A DNA stretch of 64,000 nucleotides, taken from IMG/VR virus record IMGVR_UViG_3300046616_000242, positions 1 to 64,000 of that record. One strand, given 5' to 3'. This DNA is from a virus. Within the stretch, counting starts at the first letter, position 1; each line of letters opens with the position of its first letter. Positions 15,532 to 64,000 of this stretch are shown here, in pieces. Position numbers and translations under genes: made by a program. The notes beneath the pieces were generated by a model. That model saw only the letters and a program-made list of their open reading frames with translations, was not told where the DNA came from and made no database searches.

Positions 15532-15915
15532 TTACTTGGTAGACGTTGGTGTTTCCGTCACCGTCCTCACAGGGCACGGAATCTTGACCTGCACGGAATG
15601 CGTATGTGCGAGCCCATATACAGGCGCGTACGGCGTAGCCGTGGACGTAGGTGTGACTGCGGGCGAAGGCCCGACCACTATGGACACCTTGCATGTGCCC
15701 GTGGTATCCGCCTTTGCTGGCGCCTCCGCGTAGCGGGTTACCGTGGCGACGGGCTGCGGATTGGAATCCCCCTCGGTTCTGGGAGAATCCGACTGGGAAA
15801 CTCCGGTATTAAGCCCGGCGGAATGCTGCTCGGGAATCACGGAAATTCCGATCGCAGGAATCGCGAGAAATCCGATGGCGATGAGGGCGGCCTTTACTCG
15901 GCGGAATCTGTTCAT
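15532..15915 (-). CDS. Secreted/membrane-anchored Thr/Pro-rich protein
   Basis: Signal-like N-terminus MNRFRRVKAALIAIGFLAIP. Confidence 0.6.
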   Translation of the reverse strand: MNRFRRVKAALIAIGFLAIPAIGISVIPEQHSAGLNTGVSQSDSPRTEGDSNPQPVATVTRYAEAPAKADTTGTCKVSIVVGPSPAVTPTSTATPYAPVYGLAHTHSVQVKIPCPVRTVTETPTSTK

Positions 15916-16061
15916 ACCAGCACCGTACCGTAGCCCTCGCAGGGGACACAGTCCGCTCCGTCGCGGTCCTCTCCAGTGCCGTAGCACCGCTTGCACTCGA
16001 CCTCTTCCGCCGCGCTGTCGCCGCCGTCGGCGAAAGACACTGCATGCACGTGCGCGCTCAT
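15912..16061 (-). CDS. Small DnaJ-type zinc-finger protein (49 aa)
   Basis: CKRCYGTG...CVPCEGYG. Confidence 0.65.
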   Translation of the reverse strand: MSAHVHAVSFADGGDSAAEEVECKRCYGTGEDRDGADCVPCEGYGTVLV

Positions 16062-16073
16062 GAGAAGTACTAA

Positions 16074-17612
16074 CTAACCTTCCTGGTTGTAGAAAGTTGG
16101 TACATCGACGATTTCCGCGTCGATGAATCCGCTGCCGGACTCGATCATCCGGTCCGCTGATACAGGGCGGTCGAGGGCGGTCATCTGCTCCCCGGCGTCC
16201 TTTCCGAACAGGCGACTGATCATACCGGCCTGGGCTCCGTTCCCCTTAGCCTCCAGTTTCACGGAGAAGGAATCCTGCTCCAGTTCGGTCTTCACCTTCA
16301 CCAGTTTCTGGAGCCGGTCGATCTCACCGGACAGGTTCGGATCCGCGTAGCCGCCGGTCATATCCTCGACCATCTTCATGAAGAAGACCCGCTGCGTCTG
16401 CATCTCGATGAGCGAATTCTGGAGCGAGGCCATCTGCTGCTTGCTCTTCACTTCGACCGGAATGTCGTACGCACAGTTCGCGTCCTTGTCGAAGGCCGGG
16501 CACTTCTGGGCCAGGAAGCACGCCGAGCACACCCGCATGGACTGCGAGCGGACGGTCACCAGCGGGACGTCGCGCTCCTTGTTCACGCCGTCGTCGGGGT
16601 CGGTGTAGACCTCCTTCTCCTGCACCACGCCGATGACCGGCAAGTTGGTACGCGCCCGCTCCCTGCGAGGGGTGGGAGTTGTTACGCCGTTGACCAGTTC
16701 TCCGGTGGTCGTATCAACTGTGCCCCCCTGCGTTTGAGAGAAAGCGGAGAGTATCCCTGAAGCGGAAGTAGTAACTGGATCGGCCTCGGGCGCACGGTGT
16801 TGCTCGATGGAGGCCGCGAGTTGCTGCCACGACCAGATGGTGAAGCGCAGTACCTCGTTGTTGTCGCCGTCCTCGATCTTGTCCGGGTCGAAGCCTGCTT
16901 CCTGGAAAAGAGTGCGGTGCCGCTTTCGGGCCTGGTCCTTGTATTTCTTCGGGTACCGCTTCAATTCCCGGCCGGTCCACACGATGGTGTCACCGTACTG
17001 CGAGGGGGAAATCCAGGAGGTGGACGCGACGGAATCCCAGGTGACCGCCGCCATTTCCGCAGGCTTCGTCATTGCGACGCCGTGGAGAAGGGTTCCGTAT
17101 TTCCGGGTGATCTCGTTTAGAACGGGAGCGAGATTCCGTCCGTCCAAATCCGTCTGAGTAATTCCGACACGCTTGTAGCGTTGCGCGAGGCGGTCGAGTT
17201 CATCGACGCCCCATTCCGCGTGCCAGATAGGAAGGAACTTGTCCTCCGGCAGGTCCTCCCAGAAATCCTCGCGCCGGGCCTCTATCCATTCCCGTCCGAG
17301 AACGACCGCGTCGAACTCGGACACCATATTAAGCGAGTCGATGTTCTGCTGGACGAAGGCTTCGTAGTGCGCGGCGATTTCCTTGAGTTCACCTATCGAG
17401 TACTTGTCGTCCTCGGCCTTGTTCACGGTGTAGGCACCGGAGTCGAGGAAAACCTTCTGGCCCTCCAGGTAGTGGTCCTCGATGAGCCACGGCCGGGAGA
17501 ACTTGGTGCGCCTCCGCAGCCCCATGTAGGACAGGGAGACGTTCTCGACGCCTTCCTCGGCCAGCATCTTGCGCCAGCCGGGGATCTCGGATCCGCCGAA
17601 GTACAGTTCCAC
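16074..17612 (-). CDS. TGT/DpdA-like TIM-barrel protein fused to C-terminal Cys-cluster/helical domain
   Basis: VFLDSGAYT, FLPIWH, LLHGVAMT, DSVASTSW...YG; CSACFLAQKCP...C. Confidence 0.6.
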   Translation of the reverse strand: MELYFGGSEIPGWRKMLAEEGVENVSLSYMGLRRRTKFSRPWLIEDHYLEGQKVFLDSGAYTVNKAEDDKYSIGELKEIAAHYEAFVQQNIDSLNMVSEFDAVVLGREWIEARREDFWEDLPEDKFLPIWHAEWGVDELDRLAQRYKRVGITQTDLDGRNLAPVLNEITRKYGTLLHGVAMTKPAEMAAVTWDSVASTSWISPSQYGDTIVWTGRELKRYPKKYKDQARKRHRTLFQEAGFDPDKIEDGDNNEVLRFTIWSWQQLAASIEQHRAPEADPVTTSASGILSAFSQTQGGTVDTTTGELVNGVTTPTPRRERARTNLPVIGVVQEKEVYTDPDDGVNKERDVPLVTVRSQSMRVCSACFLAQKCPAFDKDANCAYDIPVEVKSKQQMASLQNSLIEMQTQRVFFMKMVEDMTGGYADPNLSGEIDRLQKLVKVKTELEQDSFSVKLEAKGNGAQAGMISRLFGKDAGEQMTALDRPVSADRMIESGSGFIDAEIVDVPTFYNQEG

Positions 17613-17642
17613 GGGTTGTTTCTCCGAATCTGAATTGGTGGT

Positions 17643-19402: not shown

Positions 19403-20233
19403 TCACCCGTGCTCGTGCTCGTGGAGGCCGGTTCGGTGCTCGGTCTCGTGCGTCTGGAAGGCGTTCTTGGCGTTCATGTTCGGGCTGTAGCCGTGGTGCT
19501 TGACCAGGTGCTCGACGACGTCCTCGGGTGCCGACTTCTTCTTGATCTTCGGCAGTTGCTCGGCCTTGAACTGGTCGAGGTTGAGCACCTGGGCGCCGAC
19601 GTGGGTGTCTCCCCGGCCGCGCGCTTCAGCGAGCCGGTGGTGTGCGTCCGCGACGTACGGTGTACCGCCCTGGACGACCACCTTGACGTGCGGGTGGTCG
19701 GGATCGAGCGGGCCGGTGATGTAGGAGTGGGAGCCGGTCTCGAACGCGGTCTGGCCGGTGTGCAGCACCGAGCTGGTGCTGATGCTCTGGAACTTGGCGT
19801 GCTTGTTCCAGAACGCCTCGTTGCCGTGGCTCATCTGCGGGCCGTGCTTCTCGTACCAGCGGTCACCGATCTTGGGGTCGACGACGTTGCCGTGGCCGTC
19901 CAGGTGCCCGAACTGCTGCGGGTTGTGCGGCGGGCCCATGACCATCTGCCCCTCGGACTGGGGGTAGCTGGTGCGCTCCTCGTCGTGGATCAGGTCGTGG
20001 TCGCGCGGGGAGCCGATGGCGGTGACCTTGGTGTGCATCCCGCCCGGGTTGGGGGTGGGATGCGGGATATTAAGCGCGCCGGGTTTGTAGTGCGTTTGAA
20101 GGTGCAGCGGGGTGTCGCGCGTCAGGTGGTACTGGGCGCGCAGTGCGTTCTGCTTCTTCGCCTGCGGGGACTTGGTGTCCAGCGGGACCGGCAGTGCGGT
20201 CTGCTCGAACTGCGGCCCGAGGGGGTTGGCCAT
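19403..20233 (-). CDS. His-rich protein with ParB/Srx-like domain
   Basis: VKVVVQGGTPYVADAHHRLAEARGRG resembles ParB-N DGHHR. Confidence 0.55.
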   Translation of the reverse strand: MANPLGPQFEQTALPVPLDTKSPQAKKQNALRAQYHLTRDTPLHLQTHYKPGALNIPHPTPNPGGMHTKVTAIGSPRDHDLIHDEERTSYPQSEGQMVMGPPHNPQQFGHLDGHGNVVDPKIGDRWYEKHGPQMSHGNEAFWNKHAKFQSISTSSVLHTGQTAFETGSHSYITGPLDPDHPHVKVVVQGGTPYVADAHHRLAEARGRGDTHVGAQVLNLDQFKAEQLPKIKKKSAPEDVVEHLVKHHGYSPNMNAKNAFQTHETEHRTGLHEHEHG

Positions 20234-21225
20234 CACGACCTCCGGTAGGGGGTGTTCCAAAGAGCCGCCTTCGCGAGCGCGGTGGCGGCGTCATCGAGTG
20301 GAGCCCCGTAGAGGTCGGTCTCCTGCGCCTTGTGGGCCTCGACGTCCGTTGTGGCCAGGGAGTTCAGGGCCTGGACCGTGCCTGCCTGCTTGTGTGCCTG
20401 CCAGCGGAAGTTGTAGTAGTCGCCGTAGCCGGATCCCCCGGGGCCGAAGGCTTGCTTGCGGCCGATGTGGATGTCGTCGAAGAGGGCCTTGGCCTGCTCG
20501 ACGACGATCTTCTGGGAGGCCAGGGAGTTGTGCCACGTGGCCGAGTTCGGGGAGGCGCTGGAGGCCGTCGAGCGCAGGTGGCTGTAGCGCTCGATCAGCG
20601 TGCGGGCGTGGGCCTCTTCCGTCTGCACGGCGTCCCACCAGTGCTTCGGGTACAGGCTGTGGGGGTCGGTGGGCAGGGACGGCGGCCGGATGTCCCAGCG
20701 GTCACGGGTGAGGTTGTAGGCGGCGTAGGGGTTGATGGCCGCGATGGAATTCGACGTGGTTCCGGGGTTCAGGTAGTACGTGACCTCGTAGACCTGGCCA
20801 TGAAAATCGGTGATCGCGGTGTGCGGCCACAGGTTCTTCTTCAGGTCCGAGTTCATCAGGTCGGAGAATTCGGCTTCGGAGATTCCCTGGTAGGTGGGGT
20901 TCATCTCGTAGAACTTCGGGAAGTCGATTCCGAATAGGACGTCGAGGTCGCCGTTTCCACGGTCTCCGGCCCACTGGAAGGAGATGCCGGATCCGGCCAG
21001 CCAGGCGGCCAGCCAGGTGCGTACGCCCTGGTAGTGGCCGTCGAGGTAGGTATTAAGGACGCCGAGGATGTGGTCGCGGACGTCCGGCTTGATGTGGTCG
21101 CCGTCGAAGATGTGCGGGTCGAGCCCTGCCTGGGGTGTGCTGAAATACCCGGAGGCGCCCGTGTGAATGTCGGGCTGCTGTCCCTGGGTGATTGCGCGAT
21201 TGAGGTAGAACTCGTATCCGGCCAT
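20233..21225 (-). CDS. Pol-beta superfamily nucleotidyltransferase
   Basis: LAGSGISFQW...GDLDVLFG and later YEVTYY. Confidence 0.7.
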   Translation of the reverse strand: MAGYEFYLNRAITQGQQPDIHTGASGYFSTPQAGLDPHIFDGDHIKPDVRDHILGVLNTYLDGHYQGVRTWLAAWLAGSGISFQWAGDRGNGDLDVLFGIDFPKFYEMNPTYQGISEAEFSDLMNSDLKKNLWPHTAITDFHGQVYEVTYYLNPGTTSNSIAAINPYAAYNLTRDRWDIRPPSLPTDPHSLYPKHWWDAVQTEEAHARTLIERYSHLRSTASSASPNSATWHNSLASQKIVVEQAKALFDDIHIGRKQAFGPGGSGYGDYYNFRWQAHKQAGTVQALNSLATTDVEAHKAQETDLYGAPLDDAATALAKAALWNTPYRRS

Positions 21226-21312: not shown

Positions 21313-21702
21313 TCAGAGTTTCAGGCGGGAGCGCAGCGCGGCTTCCTGCTGCTGTTGCTGCATGGCCTGGCCCATCATCATCATCGCCTGCTGGGTCCTG
21401 GAGGCGGTCTCCATGACCTCAAGGTCCTTCAGCACGACGGAGGCCGCACCGTAGATGTCGTCGGGGGTGGCGCCGCGCCGGGGGACGAACTGCTGGGTGA
21501 GGTCGGAGGTGGCCACGACCGCACCGTCCAGGCCGACAGCGACGAGGAACGCCGTGGTGACGGGGGTGCCGATCTCGTCCTCGGAGGGCGGGTTCTCCTC
21601 GGCCATCCTGGCCAGGGTCTCGCGCTGCTCGGGGGTGAGGTCGTCGGTATTAAGCGGCTTGTCGGCGCTGCTGGTCTGGCCGAGGATCGGGATGTTGGGC
21701 AT
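21313..21702 (-). CDS. Hypothetical protein
   Basis: 129 aa ORF, GGAG RBS. Confidence 0.75.
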   Translation of the reverse strand: MPNIPILGQTSSADKPLNTDDLTPEQRETLARMAEENPPSEDEIGTPVTTAFLVAVGLDGAVVATSDLTQQFVPRRGATPDDIYGAASVVLKDLEVMETASRTQQAMMMMGQAMQQQQQEAALRSRLKL

Positions 21703-22309: not shown

Positions 22310-23287
22310 TTACTTGCCGGTCGCCAGGTAGCGGCCGAGCAGCACGTAGGAGTCACCGGCCGTGGCGCCCTGGACGGACACCTTCTTGCCGGAGACGGCC
22401 ACCGTGCCGGATTTCGCGTGCGCGTAGCCGAGGGCTGCATTGGCCGGACCGCCGACCGCGACGACGACGTCACCGGCAGCCAGAGCGGCCTTGGCCACGT
22501 CCAGACGGCCAGTGGCGACGGCACCCTTGGGCTGGAACGCGTCAGTGGCCGCCGCAGCGGTCATGGAGTCGATGTTCTCGCCGAAGATCACCATCGTGTA
22601 CGCCTTCGCAGGGGTTGGAGCAGGAGGAGGAGTTGGCTTGGACGGAGCCGGAGGCGCGGGCGGCGCGGGCGGCTTGACGACCTTGGCCGGGATGGCCAGG
22701 GCCTTCCAGGTATTAAGGTCCCCGTTCAGCAGGTTCTGGTCGAGGCCGCCGACGATGCCGTACTGGTGCACGGTCCACGTCGCCCAGCCCTCGGTCAGCG
22801 GGTGCCCGGCCGGGTTGTTCGGGTCGGCTACCCACAGCGGGTAGGACCGCAGTTCCTTCTTCTGCGCGTCCGAAGCCACACCGAGCAGGCCGGTGAGGTA
22901 GGAGGTGTAGGTGTACAGGAGAGGGGACGCCTTCGTCTGCGCCTTCACGTACGCCAGGAACTTCAGGGCGTAGTTCAGACGCTGGCTCCAGGAGCCCTCG
23001 GACGCCTCCAGGTCGAGCGCCAGGACCTCGCCCGCCTGGGCGCCCGCAGCAGACAGGAAGTGCTTGGCCTCGCTCACCGCGTCCTGGGTCGGGTGAGCGA
23101 AGTGGTAGTGGCCCAGGGGCTTCTTCGCGGCCCGGGTGGCCTTCACGATGCTGGCGTGCCGCGTGTCGCCCGTGTGCTCGCCCTCGGACGCCTTGGCGAT
23201 GATGAAGGCGTTGTTCTTGCTGGCGATGGCCGACGCGATGTGCGCGGCGTCGTTGTTGTTGGAGAGGTCGACTCCGTGGAGGGACAT
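22310..23287 (-). CDS. Endolysin, GH25 muramidase plus Pro-rich linker and cell-wall-binding domain
   Basis: GVDLSNNN, IAKASEG, GHYHFA, LALDLE, LWVA, HQY, LDQN. Confidence 0.85.
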   Translation of the reverse strand: MSLHGVDLSNNNDAAHIASAIASKNNAFIIAKASEGEHTGDTRHASIVKATRAAKKPLGHYHFAHPTQDAVSEAKHFLSAAGAQAGEVLALDLEASEGSWSQRLNYALKFLAYVKAQTKASPLLYTYTSYLTGLLGVASDAQKKELRSYPLWVADPNNPAGHPLTEGWATWTVHQYGIVGGLDQNLLNGDLNTWKALAIPAKVVKPPAPPAPPAPSKPTPPPAPTPAKAYTMVIFGENIDSMTAAAATDAFQPKGAVATGRLDVAKAALAAGDVVVAVGGPANAALGYAHAKSGTVAVSGKKVSVQGATAGDSYVLLGRYLATGK

Positions 23288-24002: not shown

Positions 24003-25358
24003 TCAGTGCTCCGGCAGCGTGAACTGGGTGGCGTTCAACTTGTTCGGGTACGGATTTCCCCGATCCGCCTTCGGACGGTCGTACCAGCCGCCCTTCGGGG
24101 CTTCGTGATCCGGATCCGGGTGTCCGACACCCTGGGTATTAAGCCCGCTGCCCTTGCCGTAGGTATTAAGCGACGCGTCGTGCTTGTCGCCCCGTCGCCG
24201 CTTCTCCTCCGACCACTGCGCGGACTGCATGTTCGTGAGGCTGTTGAGACCCCGCTCGGACATGACGTTCCGGGCGACGTGGTCGTGGAACGCGTGGATG
24301 CCCTTGATGCCCATGTAGGCCTGCTGACTCCCGGGACCCTTCTTGGCCTCCAGGTGCGGAGCGAAGGCACCACCACCGCTGTGCGTGTCCGACACCCAGA
24401 ACTGCGAGGAGCCATGGGGGTCGACCCACGAGTTGTGATAGGCCGAGACCTTCTCACCGGCCGTCGGCTTCCACGCGTTCGACAACTGCTTGCCGTTGAG
24501 CACCTGGTGCGTCACGTCGATGGCGAGCGCGTGGTTACGCGGGTAGCCGTTGACCGGGTAGGCGCGGTTGTCGCCTTCCTTCTTCACCAGTTCCGTGGAC
24601 TTCTGGCCCGTCTTCGAGGTGACGGTCTTCTCGACCTTGTCCTCGCGTGGCACGTGGTAGTCCGGGTGGTAGTGGTAGTCGTCGCCGGTCTTGCCGGACT
24701 TCGCCCACTGGATCGCGTGGCTGGCCGCCTCGTCGTTGGGGTAGACGGCCTTGCCGGTCTCCTTGTCCGGCCGCACGAAGACGTTCTGCGGGGACGTGAT
24801 CGCGTTCGCAGCGGCCTGGACGCCGAAGGGGACGCCGTTCTCCTTGGCCGACACCTTCAGGCGCGCACGCGGGCTCAGGGAACCATCGCGGGTGTGGTCC
24901 TCGGCCGGGCTGTAGAACGAGTCGTGGTGCCCGCCCTCGTGGGCGTAGGCGCGGTCGACCTGGGCACCCAGCGCGCGGTGCGCCGAGTCGGGGGTGACGC
25001 CGAACTTCGCGGCCGAGCGCAGCACGCGGGCCTGCTCGTGCGGGGAGTAGTCCTCCCAGCGCCGGTTGACCGGCATCATGTCCTTGACCGGGGCCATGGT
25101 GTGCTGCCCGTGCCAGACGTCGGATCCCTCGGGGCCCGCGAGTTCCATCTGGCCGTGCAGGTTCGGCGCCTTGTCGGTGTTCCCCATCAGGGAGTACGAC
25201 TGCCGTGGCGTGCGACCGGCACCGGGCTGGTCCTGGATGGTCTTGAACCGCTCGGGGTTGGACGCCTCGAACGTCTCGCGCTTGGTGGTGGCGGCCTTCA
25301 CTTCGCTGTTGTACTTGCGCGTGTCCGCGCCCTTCTGGGCCGGAGTCTTTCCTGCCAT
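24003..25358 (-). CDS. Protein with possible HhH-GPD/EndoIII glycosylase-like fold
   Basis: AITSPQ, KVSAYHNSWVDP, WVSDTH (cf. VDTH), MQSAQW. Confidence 0.45.
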   Translation of the reverse strand: MAGKTPAQKGADTRKYNSEVKAATTKRETFEASNPERFKTIQDQPGAGRTPRQSYSLMGNTDKAPNLHGQMELAGPEGSDVWHGQHTMAPVKDMMPVNRRWEDYSPHEQARVLRSAAKFGVTPDSAHRALGAQVDRAYAHEGGHHDSFYSPAEDHTRDGSLSPRARLKVSAKENGVPFGVQAAANAITSPQNVFVRPDKETGKAVYPNDEAASHAIQWAKSGKTGDDYHYHPDYHVPREDKVEKTVTSKTGQKSTELVKKEGDNRAYPVNGYPRNHALAIDVTHQVLNGKQLSNAWKPTAGEKVSAYHNSWVDPHGSSQFWVSDTHSGGGAFAPHLEAKKGPGSQQAYMGIKGIHAFHDHVARNVMSERGLNSLTNMQSAQWSEEKRRRGDKHDASLNTYGKGSGLNTQGVGHPDPDHEAPKGGWYDRPKADRGNPYPNKLNATQFTLPEH

Positions 25359-27153: not shown

Positions 27154-27492
27154 CTACTCTTTGGGATAGACGAGGTCAAGGAACGCGCCGACAGTCATCG
27201 TCGCGTACTGCTCTCTGGGGTCCGTAGTACCCCTCTTCTTGTGGAAGACGACTCCGTGCGGGACTCCCGCATTGGTGGCCTCGGTGGCGGCTTCCTTCAG
27301 CCAGCCGGATAGGCCCATCTCCTTGTGGTTCTTCGCCTCGATGACGAAGCGGTCCTCACCGGGGATGTAGAAGTCGCCCTTGTCCTGCTTGCCTTCCAGG
27401 GCGCGGCGCTCGGCCAGCGGCTGCTTTTCCTTGATGGCCGGGAGGACGGAGGACTCGAAACTCGTCCCCTTCTGCTTCGACCGGTTCGTCAT
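27154..27492 (-). CDS. Holliday junction resolvase-like PD-(D/E)xK nuclease
   Basis: KQKGTSFES, DKGD, VIEAKN. Confidence 0.75.
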   Translation of the reverse strand: MTNRSKQKGTSFESSVLPAIKEKQPLAERRALEGKQDKGDFYIPGEDRFVIEAKNHKEMGLSGWLKEAATEATNAGVPHGVVFHKKRGTTDPREQYATMTVGAFLDLVYPKE

Positions 27493-28091
27493 GCGAGCCT
27501 CAGGATCTCGCGGACCTTGGTATTAAGGTCCTCGATCGTGCCGTCGTTGACGATCGAGGCGTCGAACCACTGGTCCGGCAGTCCCTTGTCGCTCTTGTGG
27601 TCGTTGACGGGGCCGACGCCGGGCCGGTCTATCTTGACCAGCAGGCCGAGGCGGCTGTCGATGGCCTGGTGCTCGTTGACGAAGCGAACGTCGGTGAAGA
27701 CGTACTTCTTGTCCTCTTCGAGGGCCTTGAAGACGGAGTTGACCCACACGTTCTGGTCGATCATCTCCCGGCCGACCTCGGTGCCCAGGACCTGGAGCAG
27801 CCTGCGAACCTCGGGGGAGTTCCGCTTGACGGAGTCCCACCCGTACTTGTCCACGAGGTACTGGACGCGGTACTCGACGCCGCCGTATCCCTCCTCGACG
27901 AGGGGGTTGAGGACGTACAGGGCCTCGCGCAACTTGTCGCCGAACGCGACGCGGGTGTAGCCGTACTTCTCCAGGATCTTGGCGACGGTGTCCTTACCGG
28001 CCCCGGCGAAGCCATGGAGGCCGATGTACTGCGGGAGCCAGGATTCGACGATCTCGGTGTCGTCGTCAACGGGGGCGGTGGTGGTGTTCAC
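27489..28091 (-). CDS. Deoxynucleoside monophosphate kinase
   Basis: IGLHGFAGAGKDT, FGDKLR, RRLLQVLGTE, DVRFVNE. Confidence 0.85.
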   Translation of the reverse strand: MNTTTAPVDDDTEIVESWLPQYIGLHGFAGAGKDTVAKILEKYGYTRVAFGDKLREALYVLNPLVEEGYGGVEYRVQYLVDKYGWDSVKRNSPEVRRLLQVLGTEVGREMIDQNVWVNSVFKALEEDKKYVFTDVRFVNEHQAIDSRLGLLVKIDRPGVGPVNDHKSDKGLPDQWFDASIVNDGTIEDLNTKVREILRLA

Positions 28092-28605: not shown

Positions 28606-29336
28606 GGGGCGACCCTTCCGTTGTCGAGGAACGCTTCCCAGGTGAGCGGAAAGTGCTCGGCGAAAGCGGCTTCCATGTACATGGCCACCCGCTCGATCTC
28701 CTCCTGGGGGAAGGAGGGGAACGTGGCGAACTCGCTCTGTGTGCGCAGGCCCAGGAAGTGCATCAGGGACCGGGGGTTGCAGGTGGCGTAGAACGAGGTG
28801 TACATGCCGACCGGAAGGACGCTGCGGGCGACCTCGCGGGCGACTCCGTCCTTCAGCATCTGCTGGTAGTGGCTGTAGGCGGCGCGGTAGATGACGCCGA
28901 AGGAGTGCTCGACGGACAGGTACTGCTCCTGGGTGCCGTGCTCGAAGCGATAACGACCCGGCTTGCCTGTCTGAGTCAGCGGGCGGTGCGCCGAAGGCAT
29001 GTAGAAGACCGGCTCCAACTCCCTGTACCTGCCACTGGTTTCGTTATAAGACCAGCCGACCCTGTGGCGCATGAACTCGCGGGCGACGAAGATCGGGGCC
29101 TCCACGAGGAAGGACAACTGCCCGTGCTCGAAGGGGCTGCCGTGGCGGTCCCGCATCAGGTAGTTGATCAGGCCCTTGGCCTCCTTGGTTTCCGCCGCAG
29201 CCGTCCCGACGGTGGAGACGCGGGCTGCCTGGCAGATCTTCGCGTCGGACCCGGCGAGGTTGTCCACGTCGAGCGTCGCGGTGATCTCGGAGCGGAGGGT
29301 GACGTCCGTGATGGTCGCCTCGGTATTAAGCGTCAT
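28602..29336 (-). CDS. thyX: Flavin-dependent thymidylate synthase
   Basis: HGSPFEH, REFMRHR...SYNETSGRY, REVARSVLP. Confidence 0.95.
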   Translation of the reverse strand: MTLNTEATITDVTLRSEITATLDVDNLAGSDAKICQAARVSTVGTAAAETKEAKGLINYLMRDRHGSPFEHGQLSFLVEAPIFVAREFMRHRVGWSYNETSGRYRELEPVFYMPSAHRPLTQTGKPGRYRFEHGTQEQYLSVEHSFGVIYRAAYSHYQQMLKDGVAREVARSVLPVGMYTSFYATCNPRSLMHFLGLRTQSEFATFPSFPQEEIERVAMYMEAAFAEHFPLTWEAFLDNGRVAP

Positions 29337-31574: not shown

Positions 31575-31918
31575 TACCACGACAGCACCTCGTCGGGGTC
31601 GACCTCCGGGAACGCCTTGGTATTAAGCGTGAGGAAAGTTTCCTCGGACATCACGATCCAGGTCCTTCCGCTGTCCATCTGGATCCCGAAGAGCATTTCC
31701 CTGCCGTCGAGGAGGGCCTGTTTCTCTGCGGTCTGGAGTTCTGCGTCTTTGAGGGCGTACTGCTTCTTGCCGGTGACCTTGTATTCGACGGAGTACTCCG
31801 GGGTCCGTACGTCGTTCTTCCGGACCCAGCCGTTTCCACTACCCGCGTTCACCGTCCCGCCGAGGAGTTCCGCCCCCCGCCTCTCCTGCTTCTGGGACTT
31901 CTTCAGCATGTCCGCCAT
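31574..31918 (-). CDS. Small PD-(D/E)xK nuclease (resolvase-like)
   Basis: QERR...GSGNG..KND...VEYK. Confidence 0.65.
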   Translation of the reverse strand: MADMLKKSQKQERRGAELLGGTVNAGSGNGWVRKNDVRTPEYSVEYKVTGKKQYALKDAELQTAEKQALLDGREMLFGIQMDSGRTWIVMSEETFLTLNTKAFPEVDPDEVLSW

Positions 31919-32051
31919 AGGACTTCTCCAGGAGGTAGGTGAGGACGAGGAACTTGCGGTGGGCGCGGCCCTGGCGCCGGGAGTACCGGGCGCCGAGGAC
32001 CACGATGTAGAGGGCTGCTACAGCCAGGAGTGTCGAGAGCAGGGCCACCAT
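31839..32051 (-). CDS. Small membrane protein
   Basis: N-terminal TM; TGATG overlap with recA stop. Confidence 0.5.
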   Translation of the reverse strand: MVALLSTLLAVAALYIVVLGARYSRRQGRAHRKFLVLTYLLEKSYGGHAEEVPEAGEAGGGTPRRDGERG

Positions 32052-48011: not shown

Positions 48012-48106
48012 TCGGCGGCTCCGAATCCGCCGTTGATATTAAGTCGGCTCGACATGTTAGGTTCTTCCCATCTCGGGGTTTGTGGTGGGCCTCGGGGTGT
48101 GGTGGG

Positions 48107-49810: not shown

Positions 49811-50422
49811 TCAGATCGCCCTCGGACCCAGGCCGCCAGGCTGCACAGCGACGGCAGGTGTGGAGTTCTCGACGACCGGCGCCGCGACCGCCTCCACGGC
49901 CGTAACGATGGCCGGGACCGCGACCGTCTCGAAGCGCTGGACGACCGTGCCGACGACGGGGATCTCCTCGGCCGCCTTGACGGCCTCCTCCACGCCGGAC
50001 TGAACCACGTCGGTGCTCAAGGGGAAGTCGTTGGTGATGCCCTGTGCGTCCTCGGCCAGCTCGGCCGCCTGCGCCACCTCGAAGTACCGCTCGACGTCGG
50101 CGCCGTGGGTATTAAGACGGCTCTCGACCTCGGACACGAACAGGTTCTGGAGCGCACCGAACCAGGAGTACTTCTTCAGCAGGGAGTGGTAGAACGCGGT
50201 GCCGGACAGCCAGGCCAGGAACGCGGCGATCACAGCGGGCGCCCACACGAAGTTCGACGGGTCGGCCTTGTAGGTGGCCAGGGAGCCGGTGGCGAGGGCC
50301 AGGACGGCGTGCGCGAAGCCCTTGACGGTGGGGTTGGTCGACGGCTTGGTGAACACCGCCACGATGGCGGGCAGGACCAGGCCGACGGCGAGGGCCGCCA
50401 CGTCGGCGTAGTTGGTAAGCAT
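49811..50422 (-). CDS. Holin-like membrane protein
   Basis: Three N-terminal TM segments, acidic C-terminus, end of tail module. Confidence 0.55.
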   Translation of the reverse strand: MLTNYADVAALAVGLVLPAIVAVFTKPSTNPTVKGFAHAVLALATGSLATYKADPSNFVWAPAVIAAFLAWLSGTAFYHSLLKKYSWFGALQNLFVSEVESRLNTHGADVERYFEVAQAAELAEDAQGITNDFPLSTDVVQSGVEEAVKAAEEIPVVGTVVQRFETVAVPAIVTAVEAVAAPVVENSTPAVAVQPGGLGPRAI

Positions 50423-59500: not shown

Positions 59501-60915
59501 CCGGCCGCCATCTGGTTGGCTGTGATCGTGTTCGCCGCGATCTGGTTGGCGGTGATGGTGTTGGCTGCGAGCCGGTCGCCCGTGATCGAGCCCGCCAGGA
59601 TCTGGGTAGCCGTCAACGTCCCGGCGGTGATCTTCGAGGCGTCCAGCGATCCGGCTGCGATGCGCGCGGCGTTGAGCGTGCCGACGTTGATCTTGCCCGC
59701 GTCGAGGTCGGCGATCTTGGCGTTGTTGATGGCCGCGTCGGCGATCTGTGCGTTGCCGATGGCGCCGTTGATGATCTTCGCCGAGCCGATCGTGGCGTCG
59801 GCGAGCTGCGTGCCGGTGACCGCGTTGTTGGCGATGTTCGTGGTGCCGACGGCCAGGGCCGCCAGCTTGCCTGCCTCGACAGCCCCGTTGGCTATGTTCG
59901 CGGCCAGGACGGCGTTCGCCGCCAGCTTGGTGTTGTCGATGGCGCCGACTGCGATCTTCGCCGCCGACAGTGAGCCGTCGAGGATGTCCTGGGCGACGGC
60001 CTGCTTGGGGGTGTCCGAGTTCGAGCCGGACGGGGCCGAGGCGATGCCGACCTTGGAGTATGCGACCAGCCGGTAGTAGTAGGCGCTGGCGTAGTTCTGG
60101 ATGGAGTCGTACAGGAAGTCCGGGCCGGGCAGCGTGCCGATCACGACAGGGTTGGAGAACGCCGAGGTGGTGTCCCGCTGCACCTGCACGTGGGAGAAGA
60201 TCGCAGGCATTGCCGTGCCGGTGTTGTCCTTGCCGTCCCAGGTGACCCGCAGGCCGCCGAGTACCCCGAGGACCCCCGGCGCGGAGGGCACCGGAGGCGG
60301 GGTGGAAGCGGACGCCGTGGTGAGGTTGGCGCTCGCCCACAGGGAGGTGTTGTTGCTGGTGTCGAAGGCCGCGACCCTCACGTAGAGGGCCACGCCGGTA
60401 TTAAGTCCGTCGAGGAGGACCAGGTCCTCCGTGGTGACGAAGCCGCCGCTCCAGTTGCTGTTGTCGTAGGAGGTCTGGAGCAGGTAGTGGGACAGGTCGG
60501 TGAGGGCGGTCCCGTCCTGGTTCTCCGTGGGCGGGGTCCAGCTCGCTGTCACGCGGGCCCGGGTGGCGCCCTCGGCGGTGACGTACTGCACCGTGGTGAG
60601 GGTGAGGGCGGTGGGCTCCTTCGGCGGAAGGACATCGAGCGTCTCTCCGCTGGGCAGGTCGTCGACCTGGTCCTGAACGGCCTTGATGCCGAGCGGGGAG
60701 TAGACCGGCTTGGTGATGTCACCGCCGGAGAACTGCACCCACAGCGTCTGGCCGACCGGCGGGATCGTGTTGGTCGGGGAAGCGGGGGCGGCCCAGGCGC
60801 TTTCGGCGTTTCCGAGTACCTGCGGAATGAGCAGCGTGACGCGGGCTTCATTCAGCGGGTCCTGGTTATTGGCAACGCTCGCCCGGTACATTCCCAGCAC
60901 CGGATCAGCCGACAT
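56539..60915 (-). CDS. gp5/VgrG-type OB-fold spike fused to FN3 domains, repeat shaft and receptor-binding domains (1458 aa)
   Basis: N-terminal GMYRASVANNQDP...RVTLLIPQV...WA...WVQFSGGD..PVY; FN3 W..P motifs; ITANQIAAN repeats. Confidence 0.8.
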   Translation of the reverse strand: MSADPVLGMYRASVANNQDPLNEARVTLLIPQVLGNAESAWAAPASPTNTIPPVGQTLWVQFSGGDITKPVYSPLGIKAVQDQVDDLPSGETLDVLPPKEPTALTLTTVQYVTAEGATRARVTASWTPPTENQDGTALTDLSHYLLQTSYDNSNWSGGFVTTEDLVLLDGLNTGVALYVRVAAFDTSNNTSLWASANLTTASASTPPPVPSAPGVLGVLGGLRVTWDGKDNTGTAMPAIFSHVQVQRDTTSAFSNPVVIGTLPGPDFLYDSIQNYASAYYYRLVAYSKVGIASAPSGSNSDTPKQAVAQDILDGSLSAAKIAVGAIDNTKLAANAVLAANIANGAVEAGKLAALAVGTTNIANNAVTGTQLADATIGSAKIINGAIGNAQIADAAINNAKIADLDAGKINVGTLNAARIAAGSLDASKITAGTLTATQILAGSITGDRLAANTITANQIAANTITANQMAAGTITAQSGVIASIDASKITVGKLTATQIDATNLVIGGGNVSGTVASATTAGSATSAGSAGTVTGSLGAGVAVPGAQVTGTVSSATTATTATSATSAGSATTVTGSIGASVSVPAGQLSNGTIPTTTTINGGSIKTGTIDASLASITNLDASSIKAGTLTVDKFSAGLQGLVGQKFYDFGTSASKWLNAAGAGGTITSVSKTDAASGGFVMRCAGYVQGAYRPDLLIPFDPTVTYRVTCRVRQVSDNSTPGTNQNFYAGVTGIASDGVTLVSTTGANAVSNQHYVAAKGVPLTTGGAWVTYTGYIKGSSATPTGGNPANNPTAPATLHQNVKYISPCLYMNYNGGSGAAEMDMFTIEVVETGQVNSANINLGNVNASHLSLGSVTGNMVTNPGFEDASRVGWTLTQSDSTLATTVAKIEIAQGGYPARSGQGKATLGVNNTGTATATSDPFPVVAGQTYMFRYWYYGIGHLHVTFETSPDKVTWTDQMAGVNDVTYNAAAYTEDIFEMTAPTGALWGRVTFQQLNPGSYGLSTSSFSYICVDDVLVMREGYGATDISAAGVRLFGPDGSLGTELTTSNAYATFAGGAASIDPNGVGTFKSIFTPQRPAGAPSDDPTGQIWYQGQELGALLWNMPWGMVTYERGWTNKPTSSTYYTTETGLIELAFTAVEGRMYRIVARSQFDFNGGTGNQVLENRINVAATTTSVNGCTLMNPTGASPRVTDQIIARCFGMYYDGGGTDGTTAVEGIIVCSSDAGGLYSSTTALAPGDHRLLWTATQHAGNATGWGLRNYIPAQSSDFYVEDIGPAVPENGVYNTGGAAVTATKTYTKTYNAVWSRRYGNAGYTDGTVYQGYYSSTWGTQKSMIYFGTQPFTDMGSTAKVSKVEIYLYNNHWYYNGGGTAHIGAFTGTTEPTSFGGSGVNLTVSSWPVGAGKWVTLPSSWNSTWNATTPYRGITLGADLGSSTDKTYYGYFSGVGDSHPPQLKITYTK

Positions 60916-62056: not shown

Positions 62057-62321
62057 TGGGGATCCTGATGATCTGGCCGGGGGTGAGGGCAGTCCAGTCC
62101 ATGACCTCGGGGTTGGCGTCGGCGATGTGCCACCACAGGCGTGCGTCGCCGTAGAACTGGGTGGCGACCAGGTCGATGCGGTCGGCCGAGGTCCACTGGT
62201 GGTAGGTGAACTGGAAGGACCACTCGCGTTGCTGGCCCGGCACGATGGTGAGGTTGGTGCCTCGGCCGGAGGAGACGAGCGCGAGGGTGGAGTCCGCGTA
62301 GCGGGAGTTCGAGGAGATCAT
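62049..62321 (-). CDS. LysM/tail X-like baseplate protein
   Basis: DRIDLVATQFYGDARLWWHIADANP...PGQIIRIP. Confidence 0.8.
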   Translation of the reverse strand: MISSNSRYADSTLALVSSGRGTNLTIVPGQQREWSFQFTYHQWTSADRIDLVATQFYGDARLWWHIADANPEVMDWTALTPGQIIRIPSV

Positions 62322-63100
62322 CGCCCAGCCTTTCCGTTCTTGCCCAACTGCTCGGACGTCGACAGCGGGTCCCCGGAGTTAGGCAGCCGTGGGCCGATGA
62401 TCGGTGCGTACTTGTTGCCGCCCTGCGGGGTCGGCAGCAGCGTCACGGTCAACTGGACCACGCAGCGCTGGGGGATCATCTGCTGAGTCCAGTGGGTGTA
62501 CCGGACGTCCAACTGCTGGATAACGCCGTAGAAGGACAGCGTCGACCCGATGACGACGTACACCGGGGTGTAGATCATCGGGCCTGCCGGGCCGGTCGAG
62601 AAGGAGCCCTTCCGGAAGTTGTCGATGGCGGACTGCTTGTCCGTCTCCTGGTTGCCCGAGACGGTCATCGGAGTCGCAATGCCCGTGATCTTGTACAGCG
62701 ACAGGATGTCGTAAGCCACTCCGAACTCCGGAACCCATGTGAGGGCATCCCCGAACAACTTGCTGGAGTCCCACAACTCGTATGTCCGGTCGAATTGCAG
62801 GTTGAACTGCAACGTCTGCTGGAGGGGCAGGATGAACTGCCCCGCCGTGACGTCGTTCTTCAATGCTGAATTCGGGTCGGTAAGGACACCCGAGTCGATA
62901 CCGTGGGAGATGTCGAGTTCGCTAGGGTTGTACAGGAAGTTGCAGCGGTAGCGCACGCCGTTGATTGGCTTCTCCATGATGATGAAGCCGCGCGTCAACT
63001 TCTTGGTGGTGTCGAAACTGTGCCCGTCCTTCTGGAGAAACGGGATGCTCGCTATCCGGGGGTCGAAAGGACCGTTGTCTTCGATCTTGCTGGCTGCCAT
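62318..63100 (-). CDS. Tail tube initiator-like protein
   Basis: FLYNPSEL, LQFDRT, YTHWTQQMIP; between tape measure and LysM. Confidence 0.65.
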   Translation of the reverse strand: MAASKIEDNGPFDPRIASIPFLQKDGHSFDTTKKLTRGFIIMEKPINGVRYRCNFLYNPSELDISHGIDSGVLTDPNSALKNDVTAGQFILPLQQTLQFNLQFDRTYELWDSSKLFGDALTWVPEFGVAYDILSLYKITGIATPMTVSGNQETDKQSAIDNFRKGSFSTGPAGPMIYTPVYVVIGSTLSFYGVIQQLDVRYTHWTQQMIPQRCVVQLTVTLLPTPQGGNKYAPIIGPRLPNSGDPLSTSEQLGKNGKAGR

Positions 63101-64000
63101 TAGTTCCCTGCCGCGATGAGATTGATCCGGCTGTCTTCGGCGAGTGCGGTCATGAACTGCGTCGCCGCATCCCGTGCGGACGTCTGATCCATGGCGCCCT
63201 GCACCTGAACCACGACGGCCCCGGAGTGGAAGTTGAGGGTGGCCTTACCACCCGAGGTATTAAGCCCGCCAATTCCGCCCGTGAGCGGGGTATTACTCGA
63301 CAGCGCCTTTCGGATGGCGTCGGCCTGGTGCGCCGGGATAATCATTTCGCCCTTGTGGATGCGGGCGGTCTGGTCCACGTCGATATTCGTGGAGCCGACT
63401 GCGTATCCCTTATAGCCTCCGCCGTTCGACATCGACTTGATACCCGGCACATTCGCCAGGGAGCCATAGCGCGAATCCGCATACCGCACACCGGCAATAA
63501 TGTTGTCGACCGGGTTCCAAATGTTCTTGTGACCCGCCAGCGAATACGCGTTGAACGTCGAGTCGATCGTCTGGAGAATGCCCTTGGACGGGTGCCCGGC
63601 CTTGGCATTGCTGTCCCAGTTGTTCTGCGCGCGGGGGTTACCGCCGGACTCGTGCATGGCCATCGTGTTGACGTACCGCTCGTTGGAGGCGGTGTCCTTG
63701 TGCAGGATCCCGAGCGCCGACTTGATCCACGTCTTCAGGCTTCCGGAGGGCAGGGCACCGGCCGCGTTGTTGCCGTTGTCGGTGGTCTGCGACGAACCCT
63801 GTCCGGCGCCGACTCCGGAGCCCACGTTGGCCGCACCGATCGAGGAGACCCCGGCCGCGATGGCGTCGACTTCTTCGGTGGAGCCGTACGAGCCGACGTC
63901 ACCGCCGAAGCCCATGGTGGACAGTCGGTTGGAGTCGGAACCCGCAGTGTCGGAGTTGTCGTTGGTGAAGTCGCCGACGTTGCCGACCGCGCCAAGGATC
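63100..64000 (-). CDS. C-terminus of tape measure protein with SLT lytic transglycosylase domain (partial)
   Basis: HESGGNPRAQNNWDSNA..GHPSKGILQ, NPVDNIIAGVRY; frame open to right edge. Confidence 0.85.
   Translation of the reverse strand, partial: ILGAVGNVGDFTNDNSDTAGSDSNRLSTMGFGGDVGSYGSTEEVDAIAAGVSSIGAANVGSGVGAGQGSSQTTDNGNNAAGALPSGSLKTWIKSALGILHKDTASNERYVNTMAMHESGGNPRAQNNWDSNAKAGHPSKGILQTIDSTFNAYSLAGHKNIWNPVDNIIAGVRYADSRYGSLANVPGIKSMSNGGGYKGYAVGSTNIDVDQTARIHKGEMIIPAHQADAIRKALSSNTPLTGGIGGLNTSGGKATLNFHSGAVVVQVQGAMDQTSARDAATQFMTALAEDSRINLIAAGN

What the first reader, a model, noticed from the sequence alone, without database searches (positions are those of the whole stretch)
15806..63264. 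Polar AT-rich 9-mer (CTTAATAYC) written into coding sequence 26 times: candidate undescribed genome-marking system
Seen: RTATTAAG occurs 26 times on + (21 GTATTAAG, 5 ATATTAAG), 25 of them preceded by G. I found none in the reverse orientation. These account for about three quarters of the TTAA tetramers I could find. A rough base-composition expectation at about 69% GC is about 0.05 copies per strand. Every copy reads in frame as CTT-AAT-AYN (LNT/LNI/LNM), two rare codons; the other frames would give TAA stop or the bldA-dependent TTA codon. An ordinary LNT (CTG AAC ACG near 39190) shows the peptide does not force the motif. The reverse orientation could be coded as xGT-ATT-AAG but is not used. 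Distribution is zoned: none in 1-15.8 kb, 24 in 15.8-50.1 kb (about one per 1.4 kb), 2 in the tail genes. Inference: a selected, oriented protein-binding or processing site, analogous to L5 stoperators, Chi or KOPS, or an internal phage promoter or DNA modification/packaging mark. Candidate readers in the window are the AT-hook/Lsr2-like protein, MerR-like HTH, SpoVS, WhiB and the ParB/TGT cluster.
Basis: partly seen in the sequence, partly recalled or inferred. Interest (0 to 1): 0.92.

Follow-up and report, generated by a model that had tools for sequence, protein, structure and literature searches.

The report
Frame-locked nine-base word with hairpin
A temperate Streptomyces phage writes the same three rare codons (CTT-AAT-AYC), followed two bases later by a small hairpin, about 40 times into the sense strand of its genes. 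Sister phages have changed one letter at the same places, which points to an undescribed control signal, most likely read by the translating ribosome.

Summary
RTATTAAG occurs 26 times on the + strand of the window and never on the other strand, against 0.13 expected.

On the coding (minus) strand the word is (G)CTTAATAYC, and the whole 74-kb record holds 29 copies. Four features were added here.
- A GC-rich hairpin starts exactly 2 nt after the 9-mer in 50-59% of sites, against 11% in controls.
- Every copy lies in a translated ORF, including tiny leader ORFs, in the frame CTT|AAT|AYC.
- Sister phages carry CTTCATAYC at the same positions (22 of 29 sites). More than 20 proteins therefore change Leu-Asn-Thr to Leu-His-Thr together, so selection acts on the nucleic acid, not the peptide.
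- The early region, which has host-type promoters, carries none. The one reverse-strand gene that has a copy has it reversed.

The C form is ancestral and leaves the other frames open, so the frame lock is not a side effect of stop codons. With CUU in the ribosomal P site, the hairpin sits at the mRNA entry channel and the variable NAU codon in the A site.

Best reading (about 0.5): a ribosome-read pause or gating signal with an unknown lineage-specific reader. The promoter, Chi/KOPS and DNA-mark readings are not supported.

The scan met the same element earlier on sister (C-type) genomes.

The parts
63237..63264 (-). site: 9-mer 63256-63264 + hairpin 63237-63253; codon 988 of the 63100-66225 gene
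60367..60405 (-). site: 9-mer 60397-60405 + hairpin; codon 171 of the tape-measure-size gene 56539-60915
50071..50116 (-). site in gene 49811-50422 (codon 103) + hairpin
48416..48442 (-). site in acidic 429-aa gene 48170-49459 (codon 340) + hairpin
48008..48055 (-). 15-codon leader ORF (ATG TCG AGC CGA CTT AAT ATC ...TGA). It holds the 9-mer at 48035-48043 and the hairpin at 48016-32. Its stop overlaps the start of the HTH_36 gene 46998-48011. The ORF is kept in relatives although its peptide differs.
46766..46800 (-). site at codon 26 of the DnaC-like loader gene 46216-46875 + hairpin
46001..46031 (-). site 12 codons before the stop of the 77-aa ORF 45993-46226; the hairpin holds the GGAG that precedes the next start
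43027..43071 (-). 14-codon leader ORF (AGGAG-N7-ATG ACC CGG CTT AAT ACC ...TGA). It holds the 9-mer at 43054-43062. The 3' arm of hairpin 43038-43051 is the Shine-Dalgarno of gene 42734-43030, and the stop overlaps that gene's ATG.
39716..39745 (-). site at codon 34 of the MerR-like gene 39374-39844 + hairpin (7 bp, kept in 39 relatives)
38970..38996 (-). site at codon 49 of gene 38328-39140 + hairpin
38171..38209 (-). site at codon 14 of the DNA polymerase A gene 36269-38248 + 11-bp hairpin with 3 compensatory pairs among relatives
36188..36224 (-). site at codon 16 of gene 35802-36269 + hairpin
34733..34761 (-). site at codon 191 of the ribonucleotide reductase gene 33385-35331; the hairpin is built from the FGGRASG codons using rare GGA and CGA
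33205..33247 (-). site at codon 3 of the RecA gene 32051-33253 (M-A-L-N-T) + hairpin
32043..32071 (-). site 6 codons before the RecA stop; the stop and the following in-frame ATG (TGATG) lie in the hairpin loop and 3' arm. My gene caller placed the next gene start further downstream.
31581..31627 (-). site 17 codons before the stop of gene 31574-31918 + hairpin
29278..29330 (-). site at codon 3 of the ThyX gene 28602-29336 (M-T-L-N-T) + hairpin
27488..27527 (-). site 12 codons before the stop of the dNMP kinase gene 27489-28091; the hairpin spans the SD and start of gene 27154-27492
24118..24170 (-). tandem pair of sites (9-mers 24162-24170 and 24135-24143) in gene 24003-25358
22676..22717 (-). 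site at codon 191 of the GH25 lysin gene 22310-23287 + hairpin
21623..21654 (-). site at codon 17 of gene 21313-21702 (weak hairpin)
21001..21057 (-). site at codon 57 of gene 20233-21225 + 16-bp hairpin
20035..20074 (-). site (CTTAATATC) at codon 54 of gene 19403-20233 + hairpin
17294..17333 (-). site (CTTAATATG) at codon 94 of the DpdA/TGT-like gene 16074-17612 + hairpin
15763..15813 (-). site in a low-GC3 ORF for a small signal-peptide/TM-like protein (MNRFRR...GLNTGVSQ...) + hairpin; this is the last site before the motif-free early region
40441..40788 (-). candidate trans factor (inference only): a 115-aa protein of RelE/ParE/colicin-E5-like fold (weak DUF4258 match), carried by all motif-bearing lineages examined
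1..15400 (-). motif-free early region: cassettes of a TTGACA-N17/18-TAnnnT promoter, a conserved leader and small genes

Best explanation
The element is a cis-acting signal on the phage's messenger RNAs that is read by the translating ribosome.

Anatomy. It consists of three in-frame codons, CUU-NAU-AYC, then two bases, then a GC-rich stem-loop. N is A in this phage and C in the ancestral form.

Geometry. When CUU occupies the P site, the first stem pair lies 11 nt downstream of the first P-site nucleotide, at the mouth of the mRNA entry channel. [quoted passage not shown] The ribosome should therefore dwell there with the lineage-specific NAU codon in the A site.

Proposed reader and effect (inferred). 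A lineage-specific trans factor acts on this paused state and sets how much of each middle, late and lysogeny gene is made. The factor is not identified. Candidates are a RelE/colicin-E5-fold RNase encoded at 40441-40788 and, less likely, a tRNA-linked factor.

Site placement fits this effect. Sites at codons 2-20 would block re-initiation. Sites a few codons before a stop, whose hairpin holds the next gene's Shine-Dalgarno or start, would gate translational coupling.

Early genes, which are driven by host-type promoters, lack the signal. The concerted A/C switch between sister clades would then define two specificity groups, in the way operator-repressor pairs define immunity groups.

Shown: the anatomy, frame lock, sense lock, restriction to ORFs, hairpin register, concerted switch and zoning.
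For: 1. Sense-strand lock. The counts are 29/0 in this record, 40/1 in G004 and 46/1 in G001. The single opposite copy lies in a reverse-strand ORF upstream of the serine integrase. It is conserved and type-switched, and carries its own hairpin at +2.

2. Frame lock. All copies in called genes are in frame 0: 26/26, 35/35 and 40/40. Copies between called genes lie in short ORFs with an in-frame ATG or GTG 2-7 codons upstream, or at ORF ends. None of 115 copies lies in untranslated DNA, although 8-12% of the genomes is non-coding.

3. The lock is not a stop-codon artefact. The C form has no stop or TTA in the other frames. It is the ancestral form, being present in outgroups L143, L146 and L141/L147. 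Sites specific to C-type genomes arose at CTG-CAC-ACC (Leu-His-Thr) positions. Only about 6 natural LH[TI] tripeptides remain unconverted.

4. Hairpin. The +9..+48 segment folds at -14.5 kcal/mol against -10.3 in controls, z = 6-8 in three genomes; the upstream side is unstructured. The first pair lies exactly 2 nt after the 9-mer in 17/29 and 23/46 sites, against 10.6% of controls. Stems are kept among relatives with some compensatory changes and are built with rare synonymous codons.

5. Geometry. [quoted passage not shown]

6. The one position that differs between clades is the first base of the would-be A-site codon.

7. Site position. 23% of sites fall in the first 20 codons, against 9% expected. 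There is also an excess in the last 20 codons, where the hairpin covers the next SD or start.

8. Zoning by expression class.
Against: - There are no expression, footprint or cleavage data. Only assembled contigs of RNA runs were available and they were uninformative.
- The hairpins are Watson-Crick palindromes that fold equally well on either strand, so RNA cannot be told from single-stranded DNA.
- Stems have a median of 8 bp, shorter than the 11-12 bp found optimal for pausing; a 6-bp stem was much weaker in vitro (PMC8861025).
- No reader is identified.
- The phage tRNA-His tracks the C type in 7 of 7 close genomes. It is absent from a 99%-complete, more distant C-type genome.
- The RelE-fold gene also occurs in two phages without the word, and its two type-specific residues do not hold in outgroups.
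- The +1 frame behind the sites has no early stops, so there is no sign of a frameshift design.
- Why a pause should need nine exact bases is not explained.
Confidence: 0.5

Rival explanations
1. An RNA element read without the ribosome. A phage protein binds or cuts the single-stranded 9-mer presented next to a hairpin. This could be a translational operator, or a RegB-like processing or shut-off site with a 5'-hairpin that stabilises the downstream product.
For: - The copies are sense-only, including the reversed one.
- A 9-mer plus hairpin is a typical target for an RNA-binding protein.
- The specificity is clade-specific.
- The copies are zoned by expression class.
- At one locus the word is paired in cis with a downstream GGTAT(T/G) that covaries with type in 8 genomes, as if access to the word were regulated.
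Against: - It does not explain the strict frame 0 in the ancestral C form.
- It does not explain the absence from 5' leaders and other untranslated RNA.
- No RNA-binding protein was found.
Confidence: 0.17
2. A single-stranded DNA signal on the lagging-strand template. It would be a priming or primosome-loading site (ssi-like) read by the phage DnaG-type primase.
For: - The hairpins fold equally as DNA.
- Site spacing is about 1.4 kb in the replication block.
- The primase has one of the highest densities of residues fixed between A and C types (25 of 283). Neighbouring DnaB has 1 and PolA 2, and about half of the primase differences lie in or near the zinc-ribbon domain.
Against: - The reversed copy in the reverse-strand gene is conserved and type-switched.
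- Stretches of 15-18 kb have no site.
- Frame lock and ORF restriction are unexplained.
- The primase is older than the word: BRock has the primase but not the word.
- Many other proteins show comparable fixed-difference densities.
Confidence: 0.1
3. Stoperator-like double-stranded DNA sites for a phage repressor that blocks elongating RNA polymerase and defines immunity groups.
For: - The phage is temperate: it has serine and tyrosine integrases and an XRE/DUF5753 regulator, and a sister is integrated in a Streptomyces chromosome.
- There are about 40 asymmetric sites oriented with transcription, and the consensus differs between co-occurring sister clades. Stoperators show these same features (PMC6550527).
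Against: - Stoperators need no reading frame or hairpin and are described as lying throughout the genome.
- Here no site lies in non-coding DNA, and a hairpin at a fixed register is selected.
- No cognate repressor was identified. The MerR-like protein is only moderately type-specific.
Confidence: 0.08
4. Target sites of a small trans-acting phage RNA whose seed is GGUAU(U/G). The adjacent hairpin would stack on the short duplex.
For: One locus (G004 87634, not in the window) has GGTATT in A types and GGTATG in C types, 3-6 nt after a copy of the word and directly before a strong conserved hairpin. This looks like a seed-plus-terminator layout.
Against: - Only 6-7 nt are complementary, and they are already paired in cis with the upstream word.
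- No full antisense copy exists anywhere in the genomes.
- The frame lock is unexplained.
Confidence: 0.05
5. A phage-specific promoter, a site-specific nick as in T5/tf/phiKMV, or a Chi/KOPS-like polar DNA word.
For: The word is short, exact, AT-rich and polar, with about 40 copies. Five sites lie 17-30 nt upstream of a start.
Against: - Most sites lie inside long genes far from the next start, and there is no second promoter element.
- Host-type promoters are present in the same region.
- No phage RNA polymerase or sigma factor was found.
- The host genome has only background counts.
- The reversed copy follows gene direction, and the copies are frame-locked.
Confidence: 0.05

Closest known systems
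Stoperators of Cluster A mycobacteriophages (L5, Bxb1; PMC6550527)
   Same: Both are tens of asymmetric sites spread over a temperate actinophage genome and oriented with transcription. In both, the consensus differs between related phages and would define specificity groups.
   Different: Stoperators are 13-bp duplex DNA sites bound by the immunity repressor, with no requirement for a reading frame or a hairpin. Here every site is in frame 0 of a translated ORF and is followed by a hairpin at a fixed register. No repressor is known.
Frameshift-stimulating cassettes (dnaX, HIV gag-pol; PMC7282821, PMC8861025). From my own knowledge, also the +1 sites prfB CUU-UGA-C and Ty1 CUU-AGG-C.
   Same: Both have an in-frame heptamer with CUU in the P site, a 5-nt spacer after the A-site codon, and a stem-loop 11 nt from the first P-site base.
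   Different: No slippery re-pairing is possible for -1. For +1 it is plausible only in the C form. No alternative-frame product or early stop exists. There are about 40 copies per genome instead of one or two, the stems are shorter, and the word changes as a set between clades.
bldA / TTA codon gating in Streptomyces (own knowledge)
   Same: Expression of a gene set would be tied to decoding a rare codon in a high-GC host.
   Different: AAU and CAU are read by the same tRNAs as AAC and CAC, and 61 other AAT codons occur in this phage outside the word. The signal is nine bases plus a structure, not one codon. A phage tRNA-His is not required.
RelE/HigB/YoeB/YafQ A-site mRNA interferases and colicin E5-type tRNases (own knowledge; fold match)
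   Same: These are the known factors that read a codon in frame in an empty A site (RelE family) or that attack the GUN-anticodon tRNAs decoding NAU codons (colicin E5). The phage encodes a protein of this fold.
   Different: No activity, codon preference or antitoxin partner is known for the phage protein. Known family members recognise one codon, not nine bases. The gene also occurs in phages without the word.

Membership tests
Cluster A-type stoperators | [quoted passage not shown] | tested here: met
   Sense versus antisense counts are 29/0, 40/1 and 46/1. The one opposite copy lies in a reverse-strand gene.
Cluster A-type stoperators | Duplex DNA site independent of reading frame and of flanking structure | tested here: not met
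   All sites are in frame 0 of ORFs and none is in non-coding DNA. The hairpin register of +2 holds in 50-59% of sites against 10.6% of controls.
Cluster A-type stoperators | A cognate immunity repressor that binds the site | not testable with these tools
   An XRE/DUF5753 regulator and a MerR-like protein are present. No binding data can be obtained here.
Programmed frameshift cassette | Stem-loop 5-9 nt after the A-site codon (11-12 nt from the first P-site base) | tested here: met
   The first pair is at nt 12 of the element. The geometry is taken from PMC7282821.
Programmed frameshift cassette | Slippery heptamer that allows tRNA re-pairing in the new frame | tested here: not met
   By my own inspection of the sequence, G-CUU-AAU gives no -1 re-pairing. 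A +1 shift from CUU to UUA is poor for tRNA-Leu(GAG), while CUU to UUC in the C form would pair.
Programmed frameshift cassette | A functional product or a designed stop in the shifted frame | tested here: not met
   The median distance to the first +1-frame stop is 44-50 codons at sites against 30-35 in controls.
Rare-codon (bldA-like) gating | A codon served by one dedicated, regulated tRNA | tested here: not met
   The AAT and CAT codons are shared with ordinary codons of the same tRNAs. tRNA-His is absent from the C-type genome G023.
Phage or host promoter | Position upstream of transcription units, with a second element or a cognate polymerase or sigma factor | tested here: not met
   No RNA polymerase or sigma factor was found.
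Chi / KOPS-type host-read polar words | Over-represented and polar in the host chromosome | tested here: not met
   The prophage carries 40 copies, 39 of them on one strand. The remaining 10.6 Mb of Streptomyces genome holds 32 copies on both strands.
Primase recognition / ssi signals | Orientation set by the replication direction, on the lagging-strand template | tested here: inconclusive
   The replication direction is unknown. The reversed, type-switched copy argues against this. The divergence of the primase between types argues for it.
RelE/ParE superfamily (protein 40441-40788) | RelE-like alpha/beta fold | tested here: met
   The AF2 model has pLDDT 81. VIA gives Z 5-7 and rmsd 2.5-3.4 A over 63-75 residues to RelE, ParE, YoeB, YafQ, HigB, colicin E5/D, BrnT and CdiA-CT. 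Z below 8 is not decisive. The Pfam DUF4258 match has E = 1e-3, below its cut-off.
RelE/ParE superfamily (protein 40441-40788) | RNase active-site residues and ribosome-dependent cleavage | not testable with these tools
   H28, K36, R58, R64, H65, Y85 and R94 are invariant in 18 homologues. Their role is inferred only.

The most novel reading that the evidence does not exclude
A codon-addressed, RNA-level counterpart of operator-repressor immunity. About 40 entry-channel hairpins pause ribosomes with a lineage-specific NAU codon in an empty A site. A phage factor, for instance the RelE/colicin-E5-fold protein, reads that codon in frame. It silences or releases the middle, late and integrase genes.

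The 9-mer is almost absent from the host genome, so the system is orthogonal to host translation. The A and C forms would be two specificity (immunity) groups.
Probability: 0.2. Interest if true: 0.95.

Novelty: categorically new. Interest (0 to 1): 0.86.

Why it matters
If the reading holds, this would be a dispersed, frame-locked translational control code used by a virus across its whole late programme. Its address changes as a set between sister lineages. I found no description of such a system; the 9-mers occur in the held literature only as primer or construct sequences.

It would extend the idea of immunity or specificity groups from DNA operators to the ribosome. It would also give a natural example of non-slippery entry-channel hairpins used for regulation.

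It could provide an orthogonal, portable expression switch for high-GC actinobacteria such as Streptomyces.

Tried and rejected
- Promoter reading: rejected.
- Host Chi or KOPS: rejected on host genome counts.
- Abortive +1 frameshift design: there are no early +1 stops.
- Phage tRNA as the obligatory reader. tRNA-His tracks the type in 7 close genomes, but C-type G023 lacks it.
- RelE-fold protein as a proven reader. It is present in every motif-bearing lineage examined. It was not found in 8 genomes with motif-less prophage relatives, nor in BRock. However, it is also present in the motif-less L142 and L145, and its two type-fixed residues fail in outgroups.
The primase, several small ORFs, the RNA ligase and PNKP all score high, so the scan does not discriminate.
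- Sense versus antisense folding: no difference.
- RNA evidence: only assembled contigs of two root metatranscriptomes were available, with no ends or strands, so nothing could be read from them.
- Nearest named phages: BRock shows no such word, and neither do more distant Streptomyces prophages.
- Annotation: Pfam, PHROGs and NCBIfam gave nothing for most candidate small proteins.
- Literature: a search for the 9-mers found only unrelated primers.
- A possible third word, [CG]TT-CTA-G, in lineage L142. It is frame-locked in 16 of 16 copies in 20 kb. A control word is as frequent genome-wide, so this is not established.

Full report
**1. Observation.** RTATTAAG occurs 26 times on the + strand of the window and never on the - strand. 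Dinucleotide shuffles give 0.13. All genes of the window are on the minus strand. On the coding strand the word is therefore (G)CTTAATAYC, with C at position 9 in 28 of 29 copies and no conserved flanks beyond codon periodicity.

The window is part of a 73,946-bp IMG/VR virus record (65% G+C) with 29 copies, all on the coding strand. 26 of the window's 36 TTAA tetramers lie in the word. The genes of the whole 74-kb record hold 27 LN[TI] tripeptides, and 26 of them are spelled with the word, whereas a synonymous codon shuffle expects 0.10 copies.

**2. What the phage is.**
- The 15.8-50 kb block encodes PolA, DnaB, a DnaG-type primase, a DnaC-like loader, an SNF2 helicase, RecA, class II RNR, ThyX, a dNMP kinase, a Cas4-like nuclease and a GH25 lysin.
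- The nearest named phages are the Streptomyces BRock group, at about 51% PolA identity.
- Closer relatives are about 105-kb IMG/VR genomes from rhizosphere samples, plus a prophage integrated in a contig of Streptomyces sp. NPDC002088.
- A complete sister genome (G004) has a serine integrase, a tyrosine integrase and an XRE/DUF5753 regulator. It also has an RNA-repair set (RlaP nucleotidyltransferase, Rnl1-type ligase, PNKP) and a small tRNA cluster.

The phage is therefore temperate and its host is Streptomyces.

**3. Concerted switch.** Among 39 related loci the word is either CTTAATAY or CTTCATAY. The two forms are never mixed, apart from single stray copies. The counts are 40 sense and 1 antisense in G004 (A form), and 46 and 1 in G001 (C form).

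Of the 29 sites of this record, 27 are at the homologous position in G004 and 22 in G001. All 22 of the latter have C at position 4, although the flanks are only 75-90% identical. More than 20 unrelated proteins thus differ Asn/His at the same places, so selection is on the nucleic acid.

Where a site is missing in one lineage, the homologue reads CTGAACGCC or CTGAACACC. Where C types have extra sites, A types read CTGCACACC.

More distant lineages (L143, L146, L141/L147) all carry the C form, so C is ancestral and A is derived. BRock and the more distant Streptomyces prophages lack the word. The Streptomyces host of the C-type prophage has only about 3 copies per Mb, on both strands, against 0.38 per kb in the prophage.

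**4. Sense and frame lock.** Every copy inside a called gene is in frame CTT|NAT|AYN: 26/26, 35/35 and 40/40. Copies between called genes lie in short ORFs with a ribosome-binding site and an ATG or GTG 2-7 codons upstream, or in the last codons of an ORF. Two leader ORFs in the window (48008-48055 and 43027-43071) end on the start codon of the next gene. They are kept in relatives although their peptides differ.

No copy lies in untranslated DNA, although 8-12% of these genomes is non-coding by my calls.

In the A form the other frames would give TAA or the TTA codon, which these phages do not use. In the ancestral C form those frames are open (TTC-ATA-CC and xCT-TCA-TAC) and would need no rarer codons than frame 0. 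They are still never used, even by young sites. The frame lock is therefore a property of the signal.

Each complete genome has exactly one copy on the other strand. It lies in a reverse-strand ORF upstream of the serine integrase, in frame. It has switched type with the rest and has its own hairpin at the same register. Orientation follows the gene, not the genome.

**5. Hairpin.** The 40 nt after the 9-mer fold at -14.5 kcal/mol on average, against -10.3 for random in-frame positions (z = 6-8 in three genomes). The upstream side is, if anything, less structured.

With the 9-mer held unpaired, the first stem pair is exactly 2 nt after it in 17/29 and 23/46 sites, against 10.6% of controls. 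About 90% of first pairs fall within 0-4 nt. Stems have a median of 8 bp and loops are mostly 3-7 nt.

Stem sequences differ from site to site. At several homologous sites they are conserved with compensatory changes, for example three pairs at the PolA site. At other sites the stem is replaced by an unrelated one. In the RNR gene the stem is made from the conserved FGGRASG codons by using rare GGA and CGA. The stems are Watson-Crick palindromes, so folding cannot tell RNA from single-stranded DNA.

**6. Fit to the ribosome.** Count C of CTT as +1. [quoted passage not shown]

The bacterial mRNA channel holds 11 nt downstream of that nucleotide. Stem-loops placed 11-12 nt downstream hinder A-site tRNA binding and slow translocation even on non-slippery codons, and at 13 nt the effect is gone (PMC7282821). 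The only register in which the hairpin can act therefore puts the lineage-specific NAU codon in the A site.

One caveat: stems of 11-12 bp were optimal in that work and a 6-bp stem was much weaker (PMC8861025).

Site positions agree with a translational effect. 23% lie in the first 20 codons, against 9% expected. There is also an excess a few codons before a stop, where the hairpin contains the Shine-Dalgarno or start of the next gene (window 43062, 46031, 27527; at 32071 the hairpin holds the stop and an in-frame ATG).

**7. Zoning.** The motif-free 1-15.4 kb is an early region of TTGACA-N17/18-TAnnnT promoters with a shared leader. The word is dense in the replication and nucleotide-metabolism block and sparser in the structural genes. 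It recurs in the RNA-repair and tRNA region of complete genomes. G000's early region is closer to a C-type genome than to the A-type G004. Recombination therefore crosses types where no sites lie.

**8. Who reads it?** This remains unresolved.
- *Phage tRNA-His.* A phage tRNA-His (GTG; G-1, C73, long variable arm) is present in four close C-type genomes and absent from three A-type genomes. The 99%-complete, more distant C-type genome G023 has only Asn, Leu and Pro tRNAs. A phage tRNA is therefore not required.
- *RelE-fold protein.* The 115-aa product of 40441-40788 is a weak DUF4258 match. It models (pLDDT 81) as a RelE/ParE/YoeB/YafQ/HigB/colicin-E5-type fold (Z 5-7) with invariant His, Arg, Lys and Tyr residues. 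It occurs in every motif-bearing lineage examined. It was not found in eight genomes with motif-less relatives, nor in BRock. However, it also occurs in two phages without the word, and its two type-fixed residues do not hold in outgroups. It stays a candidate, no more.
- *Primase.* The primase is unusually type-specific, with 25 fixed differences against 1 in DnaB. This keeps a DNA-level rival alive, but a genome-wide scan shows many proteins with similar values.
- *DpdA/TGT-like protein.* The protein at 16074-17612 (phrog_887, E = 3e-78) has no demonstrated link to the element.

**9. A special locus.** At G004 87634, outside the window, the word ends an ORF (CTT NAT ACC TAG). It is followed by GGTATT in A types or GGTATG in C types, and then by a strong conserved hairpin. 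The T/G covaries with type in eight genomes. This shows that pairing to the word is selected there. Whether it acts in cis or as a small-RNA seed is open.

**10. Verdict.** The finding is real and the element is richer than reported. The best-supported reading is a ribosome-read pause or gating signal with a lineage-specific A-site codon (about 0.5).
- An RNA element read without the ribosome comes second (about 0.17).
- A lagging-strand DNA signal, a stoperator-like duplex site and a small-RNA target follow.
- Promoter, nick and Chi/KOPS readings are unlikely.

Earlier follow-ups of this scan on C-type sister genomes reached the same general reading. I saw those notes only after my own tests and do not count them as evidence.

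Noticed in passing
window 4943-49467 (12 places, e.g. 4943, 7884, 15431, 15445, 41054, 46925, 49458): AAGCCGTAAT / ATTACGGCTT boxes: 12 matches with at most 1 mismatch against 0.74 expected. They sit in or next to promoter-like intergenic regions, one of them in the spacer of a TTGACG-N17-TAGTGT promoter. They are probably operators of a separate regulator.
   Followed up: partly
window 1-15400: Early region made of repeated cassettes: a TTGACA-type promoter, a conserved leader (..CAACCGCCCCCGCAACAGGAGGAGC..ATG), small genes and hairpin terminators. This part of G000 is closer to the C-type G001 than to the A-type G004, so the genome is a mosaic.
   Followed up: partly
L059:2995-3129 (-), genome G001: A c-di-AMP (ydaO-type) riboswitch aptamer (Rfam RF00379, 71.9 bits, E = 1e-15) lies inside the phage tRNA cluster.
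   Followed up: no
L059:1738-1822 (-); also L061-L063: A phage tRNA-His(GTG) with an encoded G-1, C73 and an unusually long variable arm (86 nt). It is present in four close C-type genomes, absent from three A-type genomes and absent from the more distant C-type G023.
   Followed up: yes
L052:9487-13448 (G004): An RNA-repair gene set (RlaP-type nucleotidyltransferase, Rnl1-type RNA ligase, PNKP) next to the tRNA genes, with several of the 9-mer sites inside these genes.
   Followed up: partly
window 16074-17612: A 512-aa protein matches PHROG 887 'queuine tRNA-ribosyltransferase' (E = 3e-78) but no Pfam family at E <= 0.001.
   Followed up: partly
L048:1-3519 (G004): A large serine recombinase and a tyrosine integrase lie side by side in divergent orientation. 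The serine integrase is preceded by a 49-codon ORF that carries the only reverse-strand copy of the word.
   Followed up: partly
L142 (genome G025), whole 20-kb locus: [CG]TT-CTA-G occurs 16 times on the sense strand and once on the antisense strand, always in frame as (L/V)-L-x, in a phage that has the RelE-fold gene but not the 9-mer. Genome-wide the count is 45 against 9, but a control word is as frequent, so this is not established.
   Followed up: partly
L052:7634-7720 (G004 87634-87720): The word at an ORF end pairs with a downstream GGTAT(T/G) that covaries with the A/C type in 8 genomes. A strong conserved hairpin follows, upstream of a gene for a DUF2637 + HTH protein.
   Followed up: partly
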